Origin: Escherichia coli
GTDB lineage: Bacteria; Pseudomonadota; Gammaproteobacteria; Enterobacterales; Enterobacteriaceae
Assembly (NCBI RefSeq): GCF_030013595.1
Contig: NZ_CP122768.1
Strand: one strand, 5' to 3'
Length of the DNA: 64,000 nt
Positions 62,244 to 63,154 of the stretch are shown piece after piece. How positions within the stretch are numbered: the first letter of the stretch is position 1; every line of letters begins with the position of its first letter. The translations under genes and the position numbers were made by a program. Below the pieces are notes generated by a model that saw only the letters and a program-made list of their open reading frames with translations, searched no databases and was not told the DNA's origin.

Positions 62244-63154
62244 TCAGAAGAAAATCCAGTTCCATACAGCGCGGGCAACAGAGACCACCGAGTCACGGAC
62301 GGCACGCAGAACCGTGCGTGCAACAGAGGCAACACAGACGCTCTCCGCTGTGTCAAATATCCGGTCCACCGCACCGGTAAACTGTTCACGGGCCTGAGAC
62401 CGGACAGATTCCGTGCGCAGCTCGTCCTGCAGGCGGGTCATCAGGGGACTGGGGCATGGTCGGGAAGCGCTGTCATGAGCGCACTGACCAGCGTATCCAG
62501 TTCCCAGCCGGTGCGGGCCGATACGGCCACAACCGGATGTACGGGCCGGAACAGACGGAATACCGCCTCCGTTTTTTCGCGAATATTCTGTGCCTGTGCG
62601 GGAGAAGGCTGAATACCGGCCATATCCCATTCATGGCAGGGCTCCGTTTTGTCGGCCTGCGTCACCACAAACAGCACCTGCTGATGTCCCCGGTGCAGGA
62701 TGTGTCGCCAGAAATACTCATCCACAGACAGGGCGCGGTCATCGGCTTTAATCAGCCACAGCACCAGGTCCAGTTCGGGCAGAATGTCACGGTACAGGGC
62801 TTCATACTCTGCATCCCTGTCCCGGCTCTCGCCCACCCCGGGCAGGTCAGTGATAACCATGCTGTGACCGTGGCCACTCAGACGGAAGCGCCGCACTTCC
62901 CGGGTGCCGGCGTGAACATCACTGACCGGGGTGACCTCCCCCTGAAACAGCGCATTACAGAGTGAGGATTTACCGGCCCCGCTTTTCCCCATAATGCCAA
63001 TCACGGGTTCGTGACTGGTGAGTTTGCGCAGATGTTCCAGGATGTGACGGGAAAGCGAGTAAGGCAGGGAAGAAAGTGGTTTTTCAATTGCCTCAATGGC
63101 ATCAGACGGATTCATACATGTATTCCCGGTGAAAAAAGACAAAACCCCGCGCAC
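62244..63154 (-). pseudogene. yeeP: YeeP/YkfA-family GTPase, apparently frameshifted
   Basis: ORF 62441-63154 carries the G1 motif GIMGKSGAGKSS and DLPGVGES; the C-terminal continuation appears in another frame (ORF 62244-62630), suggesting a frameshift near 62440-62470. Confidence 0.45.

What the first reader, a model, noticed from the sequence alone, without database searches (positions are those of the whole stretch)
62244..63154. YeeP-like GTPase appears split across two frames
The N-terminal 237-codon ORF carries the G1 and switch motifs and ends abruptly. A plausible C-terminal continuation is open in a different frame (ORF 62244-62630). This suggests a frameshift pseudogene, or a sequencing error.
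Basis: inference. Interest (0 to 1): 0.25.

Follow-up and report, generated by a model that had tools for sequence, protein, structure and literature searches.

The report
Frameshifted yeeP island GTPase gene
A GTPase gene of unknown function, carried on a mobile island of an E. coli chromosome, has lost one base and so ends early; this is an ordinary, recently made pseudogene (or an isolated assembly error), not a new kind of feature.

Summary
On the minus strand a yeeP-type "GTPase family protein" gene (normally 873 bp, 290 aa) is split across two frames. Against intact orthologues the window lacks exactly one base. That base is the G of GCC-G-CCAGT, which belongs between window 62453 and 62452 (CDS nt 664, codon 222). 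The reading frame then runs ...DHAPVP and stops at TGA 62443-62441.

Putting the base back gives a 290-aa protein identical to one already in public databases. The break falls just after a complete G domain (G1-G5 retained). It removes a conserved 69-residue helical tail that every full-length homologue has.

The deletion appears in none of 8,178 copies of this junction in 4,427 complete E. coli genomes. It is also absent from two large contig collections. Compared with the closest relatives, it is the only 1-nt indel in the whole 64-kb window.

The likely start is ATG 63115 (224 codons), not GTG 63154 (237).

The gene lies in a pheV-integrated, CP4-44-like island, upstream of IsrC and Ag43. 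yeeP is already a known pseudogene in K-12, broken there in a different way.

Verdict: a private, very recent frameshift pseudogene (about 0.78); an assembly error cannot be excluded without reads (about 0.17). Low interest.

The parts
62441..63115 (-). Truncated yeeP-type GTPase reading frame: 224 codons plus stop. It holds the complete G domain and ends ...ALPDHAPVP*. The maximal ORF from GTG 63154 is 237 codons.
   Evidence: The ATG 63115 start is inferred from the RefSeq orthologue annotation.
62452..63453 (-). PLEASE READ AS 62452-62453: the site of the single-base deletion. The G of GCC-G-CCAGT (C on the + strand) is missing between these two positions, at CDS nt 664, codon 222.
62244..62450 (-). 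Out-of-frame remnant encoding the conserved C-terminal tail (residues 222-290, ...SPLMTRLQ...AVWNWIFF, plus stop). It has no further lesion.
62439..62443 (-). TGATG: the premature stop TGA (62443-62441) overlaps the ATG of Met225 in the tail frame (62441-62439).
   Evidence: read directly from the sequence; any functional meaning is speculative
61891..62127 (-). IsrC (IS102) small RNA and agn43 regulatory region, with three GATC sites at 62122-62125, 62103-62106 and 62090-62093. It lies immediately downstream of the GTPase gene.
   Evidence: RF00124, 68.1 bits, E 3.4e-10; GATC positions read
59026..61872 (-). Ag43/Cah-family autotransporter adhesin gene, the downstream neighbour. The orthologue is 948 aa; the maximal ORF extends to 61947.
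63225..64000 (-). 3' part of the upstream 339-aa island gene, cut by the window end. No family assignment.
53857..53878 (.). 22-nt copy of the 3' end of tRNA-Phe (pheV). It is the att repeat marking the island boundary; the island runs from 53879 to beyond the window end.

Best explanation
This is the yeeP-type GTPase gene (YeeP/NgrB; paralogues YkfA and YfjP) of a CP4-44-like genomic island integrated at pheV. A single-base deletion at codon 222, private to this genome, has disrupted it. Translation from ATG 63115 yields a 224-residue product: the whole G domain plus three aberrant residues (PVP), ending at TGA 62443-62441. The conserved 69-residue C-terminal tail is no longer translated in frame. 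In the predicted structure that tail is a short helix (219-226) followed by two long helices (236-260 and 264-289), the last one strongly amphipathic. The tail is present in every full-length relative and is under purifying selection in intact alleles, so the truncated protein is most likely non-functional or severely impaired (inferred). The biochemical role of the intact protein is unknown. From fold similarity I infer a nucleotide-dependent switch with a helical domain, in which the tail mediates partner or membrane binding.
For: Shown. There is a 1-nt gap at 62452/62453 against three intact orthologues. The repaired CDS gives a 290-aa protein identical to P0001 (A0A2W6Q711_ECOLX), seen on 26 contigs, whereas the truncated 224- and 237-aa forms are absent from a 15-billion-protein collection. 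Intact alleles in eight other loci differ from the repaired gene by 2-7 nt, all synonymous. None of 8,178 places in 4,427 complete E. coli genomes carries the deleted junction; the best match is 98.6% identity, spanning 72 record bases against the 71-base query. The junction has 0 exact matches in genome contigs and metagenome contigs, while the intact junction is found as a positive control. Across 53,878 bp shared with the closest relative there is no 1-nt indel, and across the 10.2-kb island part the only indel is this one. Among 61 reference CDS only this gene is split, and gspE and yghX are intact. Homologues are 290-291 aa with 100% coverage, and distant relatives align to the end. In intact alleles dN/dS is about 0.17-0.22 for the tail and about 0.02-0.07 for the G domain. 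The AF2 model has pLDDT 91 and pTM 0.89, with a confident helical tail. All G motifs lie upstream of the break. Other E. coli copies have decayed in different ways, including K-12 yeeP.
Against: No reads are available, so a consensus or assembly error at this one position cannot be excluded. The gene family is multi-copy (median 2 places per genome), which can mislead read mapping and polishing. Loss of function is inferred, not shown: the complete G domain is retained and might still bind and hydrolyse GTP. The source genome was not identified, so I could not check whether sister isolates share the deletion.
Confidence: 0.78

Rival explanations
1. Sequencing or assembly error: the genome really carries the intact 873-bp gene, and one base was dropped in the consensus.
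For: The lesion is a single base and is otherwise unique in public data. The rest of the gene is perfect, which is what an error would look like. The family is multi-copy in most E. coli, and such regions are prone to polishing artefacts.
Against: The window shows no other 1-nt indel in 64 kb against its closest relatives and no other frameshifted gene, so the assembly is not indel-prone. In the intact allele the site is CCGCC, which is not a homopolymer, Dam or Dcm site (read from the sequence). Independent decay of this gene is common in E. coli.
Confidence: 0.17
2. The split gene is still functional. Either the 224-aa G domain works alone, or ribosomes terminating at UGA reinitiate at the overlapping AUG (TGATG, Met225), and the resulting 66-aa tail reassembles non-covalently with the G domain.
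For: All of G1-G5 are retained. The stop overlaps an in-frame ATG of the tail frame (sequence). The tail frame is intact. In the model the tail forms a discrete helical unit.
Against: No Shine-Dalgarno-like sequence precedes the ATG. Met225 is not conserved in homologues, which have V, A or T there. No natural two-gene version of this family turned up among the truncated hits I inspected (8 of them) or among the full-length homologues. The arrangement is unique to this genome, so it has not been tested by selection.
Confidence: 0.04
3. Programmed -1 ribosomal frameshifting or transcriptional slippage restores the full-length protein.
For: The deletion creates a short CCCC run, on which a tRNA-Pro could in principle slip by -1 (inference only).
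Against: There is no X_XXY_YYZ heptamer in phase. The frameshift is not conserved: 0 of 8,178 related copies carry it, and all homologues are single ORFs. Four C residues are too few for efficient slippage.
Confidence: 0.01

Closest known systems
yeeP (b1999) pseudogene of E. coli K-12 cryptic prophage CP4-44
   Same: Same gene type: 98% amino-acid identity over residues 150-290. Same position directly upstream of isrC and flu/Ag43. Also a pseudogene.
   Different: K-12 retains only a 426-bp 3' fragment, having lost the N-terminal half next to an IS2-disrupted region. Here the gene is full length, with a single 1-nt deletion at codon 222, and the island sits at pheV rather than at the CP4-44 site.
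Intact 'GTPase family protein' WP_001069764.1 / A0A2W6Q711_ECOLX (YeeP/NgrB of pheU/pheV/selC islands; PMC6174562, PMC6980539)
   Same: The repaired window protein is identical to A0A2W6Q711 and differs from WP_001069764.1 by V262I only. It has the same neighbours: Ag43, DUF932, antirestriction, RadC, DUF987, CbeA/CbtA.
   Different: The window copy lacks one base and cannot make the 290-aa product.
YfjP (b2632, CP4-57) and YkfA (CP4-6), the K-12 paralogues
   Same: 50% identity to YfjP over the full 287-290 aa, tail included; same G motifs; same island module position upstream of a DUF932 gene.
   Different: These are paralogues, not orthologues, and are intact in K-12. YkfA was not compared directly here.
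Immunity-related GTPases (Irga6/IIGP1, Irgb6, Irgb10), by fold only
   Same: They are the best Foldseek PDB matches over nearly the whole model (E ~1e-9, TMq 0.52-0.59, ~285 aligned columns). The aligned length covers the N- and C-terminal helices as well as the G domain. There is also a weak Pfam IIGP hit (E 0.011).
   Different: Only 18-21% identity and rmsd 5-8 A. IRGs are ~400 aa with a larger helical domain. No sequence-level membership: the hit is below Pfam's threshold. The resemblance concerns the intact family, not the frameshift.

Membership tests
YeeP/YkfA/YfjP island GTPase family (RefSeq 'GTPase family protein') | TRAFAC-type G domain with G1 GxxxxGK[ST], G3 DxxG, G4 [NT][KQ]xD and G5 SA[KR]; Pfam PF01926 above gathering score | tested here: met
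   G1 43-50, G3 90-93, G4 TQAD 152-155, G5 SAR 199-201. PF01926 scores 55.8 bits against a cut-off of 21.9.
YeeP/YkfA/YfjP island GTPase family (RefSeq 'GTPase family protein') | High sequence identity to named members | tested here: met
   98% to the K-12 yeeP fragment; 50% over full length to YfjP; 100% to P0001 after repair.
YeeP/YkfA/YfjP island GTPase family (RefSeq 'GTPase family protein') | Single ORF of ~287-291 codons including the ~70-residue C-terminal helical tail that ends in a hydrophobic W/F motif | tested here: not met
   The frame breaks at codon 222. The tail is encoded but out of frame. All full-length homologues have it in frame.
YeeP/YkfA/YfjP island GTPase family (RefSeq 'GTPase family protein') | Position in the CP4-like island module (upstream of IsrC/Ag43 and the DUF932-antirestriction-RadC-DUF987-CbeA/CbtA genes) | tested here: met
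   the literature describes the same module (PMC6174562, PMC6980539).
Frameshift pseudogene | An indel not divisible by three relative to intact orthologues, with homology continuing in the new frame | tested here: met
   1-nt deletion at 62452/62453. HSPs q1-224 in frame -1 and q223-290 in frame -3.
Frameshift pseudogene | The lesion is real in the organism's DNA, not an assembly artefact | not testable with these tools
   No reads. Indirect support: no other 1-nt indel in 64 kb.
Frameshift pseudogene | Loss of function of the product | not testable with these tools
   Inferred from tail conservation and the structure model.
Programmed ribosomal frameshift / recoding site | The frameshift is conserved among homologues, with a slippery motif in phase | tested here: not met
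   0 of 8,178 related copies share it. Homologues are single ORFs. No X_XXY_YYZ heptamer in the sequence.
Phase-variable (contingency) locus | The indel lies in a homopolymer or short tandem repeat whose length varies among strains | tested here: not met
   The intact sequence at the site is CCGCC, and one G is lost. No length variation at the site in 8,178 copies.
IRG / dynamin-like GTPases | Sequence-level membership (Pfam IIGP or Dynamin_N over threshold across the domain) and a comparable helical domain | tested here: inconclusive
   IIGP scores 15.3 bits against a cut-off of 24. Dynamin_N scores 36 bits against 27 but covers only residues 82-153. Foldseek TMq is 0.52-0.59.

The most novel reading that the evidence does not exclude
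By chance the deletion converted a single-chain GTPase into a translationally coupled two-cistron gene (TGATG). The G domain (224 aa) and the helical tail (66 aa, from Met225) would then be made separately and reassemble, giving a natural split-protein variant that would show the tail is an autonomous module.
Probability: 0.04. Interest if true: 0.3.

Novelty: already known. Interest (0 to 1): 0.08.

Why it matters
It matters mainly for annotation. The locus should be annotated as one frameshifted pseudogene (62244-63115, minus strand), not as two ORFs or as a 237-aa GTPase. It also adds one more independent example of decay in the yeeP/ykfA/yfjP family of island GTPases, whose function remains unknown. 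The break falls cleanly between the G domain and the conserved helical tail, so if the mutation is real, this strain is a natural tail-less allele. That could be useful to anyone testing what the tail does. Nothing here bears on a long-standing open question.

Tried and rejected
(1) I looked for the same deletion elsewhere. I tried an exact protein look-up, a 71-nt junction megablast against 5,426 complete E. coli genomes, and exact junction scans of genome contigs and metagenome contigs. All were negative; the intact junction served as a positive control.

(2) I tried to identify the source genome. The closest chromosome backbone (HCP5S3_I2) is 99.9% identical over the first 20 kb and 99.35% over 53.9 kb, but it has an empty pheV site. 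The best island match (NDM2) is 98.8%. The source is therefore not in the complete-genome collection.

(3) I tested whether the assembly is generally indel-prone. It is not.

(4) I considered a programmed frameshift or phase variation and rejected both, because the site is not conserved and has no repeat.

(5) I looked for a functional assignment. NCBIfam gives only sub-threshold Era/MnmE/Der G-domain hits. PADLOC gives weak LeoBC/LeoA hits (E 1.4e-8 and 7.9e-5). PDB sequence hits cover the G domain only. The literature offers no characterised function.

(6) The promoter/terminator scan around the gene was uninformative; counts were at the shuffle expectation.

(7) A whole-window GATC search was uninformative at window scale. 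I read the three agn43 GATC sites from the sequence instead.

Full report
WHAT IS THERE. One is 62441..63154 (237 aa from a GTG). The other is 62244..62630 (128 aa) in another frame. The 237-aa ORF hits Pfam MMR_HSR1 (PF01926; 55.8 bits, cut-off 21.9) and several other G-domain families. The 128-aa ORF hits nothing.

A megablast of the locus against 5,426 complete E. coli genomes finds 9,821 related places in 4,579 genomes. These are annotated "GTPase family protein". In the best matches the gene is a single 873-bp CDS of 290 aa (WP_001069764.1 in strain T2, WP_001069760.1 in TST3). It lies between a 1,020-bp hypothetical gene and an Ag43/Cah autotransporter gene.

THE LESION. A three-way DNA alignment (A1) shows that the window matches strain T2 across the whole gene apart from one substitution and one gap. 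The window lacks the G of GCC-G-CCAGT. In window coordinates the missing base belongs between 62453 and 62452 on the minus strand (a C on the plus strand). That is CDS nucleotide 664, codon 222. The frame then reads ...ALPDHAPVP and stops at TGA 62443-62441.

Re-inserting the base gives an 873-bp ORF. Its 290-aa product differs from the T2 protein only by V262I. It is identical to a protein already in public databases (P0001 = A0A2W6Q711_ECOLX, seen on 26 contigs). There is therefore no second lesion, which points to a very recent event or an error.

The RefSeq orthologues start at the ATG equivalent to window 63115 (MNPSD...). The real truncated product is thus more likely 224 aa than the 237 aa of the maximal GTG ORF. 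Only the last 69 codons of the 128-codon ORF (62450-62247) are genuine coding sequence.

IS IT MORE THAN CHANCE, AND IS IT SHARED? The truncated protein, with either start, is absent from a 15-billion-sequence collection.

A 71-nt query centred on the junction matched 8,178 places in 4,427 complete genomes. None reached 99% identity. The best matches were 98.6% and spanned 72 record bases against the 71-base query, so they carry the extra base.

Exact scans for the 40-nt deleted junction found nothing in genome contigs or metagenome contigs. The 41-nt intact junction was found, in the E. albertii type strain and in a contaminated MAG contig, which shows the scan works. The deletion is therefore private to this genome.

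It is not met. Homologues at about 60% identity from Serratia, Yersinia, Citrobacter, Klebsiella, Enterobacter, Erwinia and Pectobacterium are uniformly 290-291 aa with 100% query coverage. Relatives at 30-45% identity, about 290-305 aa long, still align to residue 289.

REAL MUTATION OR ASSEMBLY ERROR? Without reads this cannot be settled, but I measured how error-prone the assembly is.
- The window is collinear with its closest complete relative (pig isolate HCP5S3_I2) for 53,878 bp, with 346 substitutions and one 6-bp intergenic indel. There are no 1-nt indels.
- Over the 10.2-kb island part, against the orthologous island of strain NDM2, the only indel is the one in this gene.
- Of 61 reference CDS mapped by tblastn, only the GTPase splits across frames.
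- gspE and yghX, which are broken in NDM2, are intact here.
- In the intact allele the site is CCGCC. It is not a homopolymer and not a Dam or Dcm site.

These points favour a real mutation. The multi-copy nature of the family (median two places per genome) keeps a polishing artefact plausible. I put it at about 0.78 real and 0.17 error.

WHAT IS LOST. All five G motifs lie upstream of the break: G1 GKSGAGKS 43-50, G3 DLPG 90-93, G4 TQAD 152-155 and G5 SAR 199-201. PDB sequence matches (Der, Era, MnmE G domains) end at about residue 220-238. The truncated product is therefore a complete G domain.

The lost 69 residues are conserved in length across the family. They keep a near-invariant Pro218 just before the break and a hydrophobic W/F-rich C-terminus (A2). 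In intact E. coli and E. albertii alleles the tail has dN/dS of about 0.17-0.22, against about 0.02-0.07 for the G domain. The counts are small, but both regions look constrained.

An AlphaFold2 model built on a 36-sequence alignment is confident (pLDDT 91, pTM 0.89). It places the tail as helices 219-226, 236-260 and 264-289, alongside two N-terminal helices at 3-14 and 19-34. The last ~25 residues have a high helical hydrophobic moment (0.58-0.70) and are not hydrophobic enough for a transmembrane segment.

Foldseek against the PDB ranks immunity-related GTPases first: Irga6/IIGP1, Irgb6 and Irgb10, with E ~1e-9, TMq 0.52-0.59 and ~285 aligned columns. This is a fold resemblance only. Identity is 18-21% and the Pfam IIGP hit is below threshold.

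My inference is that the tail and the N-terminal helices form the helical (effector or localisation) domain, and that its loss disables the protein. The biochemical function of the family is not known from the literature I could search.

CONTEXT. The gene sits in a genomic island.
- The window follows the backbone of HCP5S3_I2, whose pheV site is empty (yghD - tRNA-Phe - yqgA), up to 53878.
- Window 53857-53878 is the 3'-terminal 22 nt of pheV, the att repeat.
- From 53879 onward the window carries the CP4-44-like module: DUF4942, DUF957, DUF5983, CbtA, CbeA, YeeT, RadC, antirestriction, DUF932, Ag43, IsrC, the GTPase, and a 339-aa hypothetical gene.
- Rfam finds IsrC/IS102 RNA at 61891-62127.
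- The same module, with "YeeP/NgrB", has been described for pheU/pheV/selC islands and for the Shigella SRL island (PMC6174562, PMC6980539).

COMPARISON WITH WHAT IS KNOWN. The repaired protein is 98% identical to the K-12 yeeP remnant and 50% identical to YfjP over its full length. K-12 yeeP is itself annotated as a pseudogene, but as a 426-bp 3' fragment. Metabolic engineers use it as a chromosomal integration locus (PMC9923381).

Other E. coli copies in the protein database are broken in other ways. P0064 has a frameshift in an A-run at REK|NGGG, and P0052 runs into unrelated sequence after ...TALP. Independent decay of this gene is therefore commonplace. This allele is one more instance with a previously unseen lesion.

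ALTERNATIVES CONSIDERED. Programmed frameshifting and phase variation are rejected. The site is not conserved, has no slippery heptamer and has no repeat.

One curiosity remains. The premature TGA overlaps the ATG of Met225 in the tail frame (TGATG, 62443-62439). This is the classical termination-reinitiation arrangement, so the tail could in principle be made as a separate 66-aa peptide. There is no Shine-Dalgarno sequence, Met225 is not conserved, and no natural two-gene version of the family turned up, so I give this about 0.04.

VERDICT. The feature is an ordinary, private, recent frameshift pseudogene of a known island GTPase, or less likely a single-base assembly error. Novelty: already known in kind. 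Interest is low (0.08).

Noticed in passing
window 53857-53878 (island from 53879 to beyond 64000): The 3'-terminal 22 nt of tRNA-Phe (pheV) sit right after yghD, and homology to a relative with an empty pheV site ends there. This marks the boundary of a pheV-integrated island. No intact tRNA gene lies in the window.
   Followed up: yes
window 61891-62127 (-), GATC at 62122-62125, 62103-62106, 62090-62093: IsrC/IS102 small RNA (Rfam RF00124, 68 bits) overlaps the agn43 upstream region. Its three closely spaced GATC sites have the layout of the known Dam/OxyR phase-variation switch of Ag43 (own knowledge; not tested here).
   Followed up: partly
window ~62179-62188 (- strand C10 run; indels vs strain T2 at 62174 and 62187): A ten-base C homopolymer lies in the spacer between the GTPase stop and IsrC. 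This tract differs by indels from strain T2 but not from NDM2 or TST3. It may be a hypervariable tract.
   Followed up: partly
window 62439-62443 (-): The premature stop overlaps an ATG in the tail frame (TGATG), the classical stop-start overlap for translational coupling. It is probably coincidental.
   Followed up: partly
window 63225-64000 (-), cut by the window end: The upstream 339-aa island gene has no Pfam, NCBIfam or PADLOC hit. RefSeq names it inconsistently in different strains: hypothetical protein, transcriptional regulator, or replication regulatory protein RepB.
   Followed up: partly
window 1359-2291 (+) and 46296-47789 (+): yghX (310-aa ORF) and gspE (497 aa) are intact here. 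In strain NDM2 yghX is frameshifted and gspE has an internal stop.
   Followed up: partly
window ~16700-25750: An accessory cluster sits between yghR and yghO. It holds serine palmitoyltransferase (spt), an acyl carrier protein, an epimerase/dehydratase, a fatty acyl-AMP ligase, extra lptF/lptG paralogues and an LPS-biosynthesis protein. This suggests a sphingolipid-like lipid pathway.
   Followed up: no
window 9503: A 6-bp indel (CGTGAA missing here) in the intergenic region after hybG is the only other indel against the closest relative across 53.9 kb.
   Followed up: no
protein-level (intact YeeP model m8bbfba525e33): The predicted structure of the intact family member most resembles eukaryotic immunity-related GTPases (Irga6, Irgb6, Irgb10) over nearly the whole model (~285 aligned columns), and PADLOC gives weak LeoBC/LeoA hits. 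This could be a lead on the unknown function of this widespread island GTPase.
   Followed up: partly
window 59026-61947 (-): The maximal Ag43 ORF (973 aa from ATG 61947) extends 25 codons upstream of the orthologue's annotated start (948 aa, window 61872). It overlaps the IsrC terminator-like hairpin at 61904-61931.
   Followed up: no
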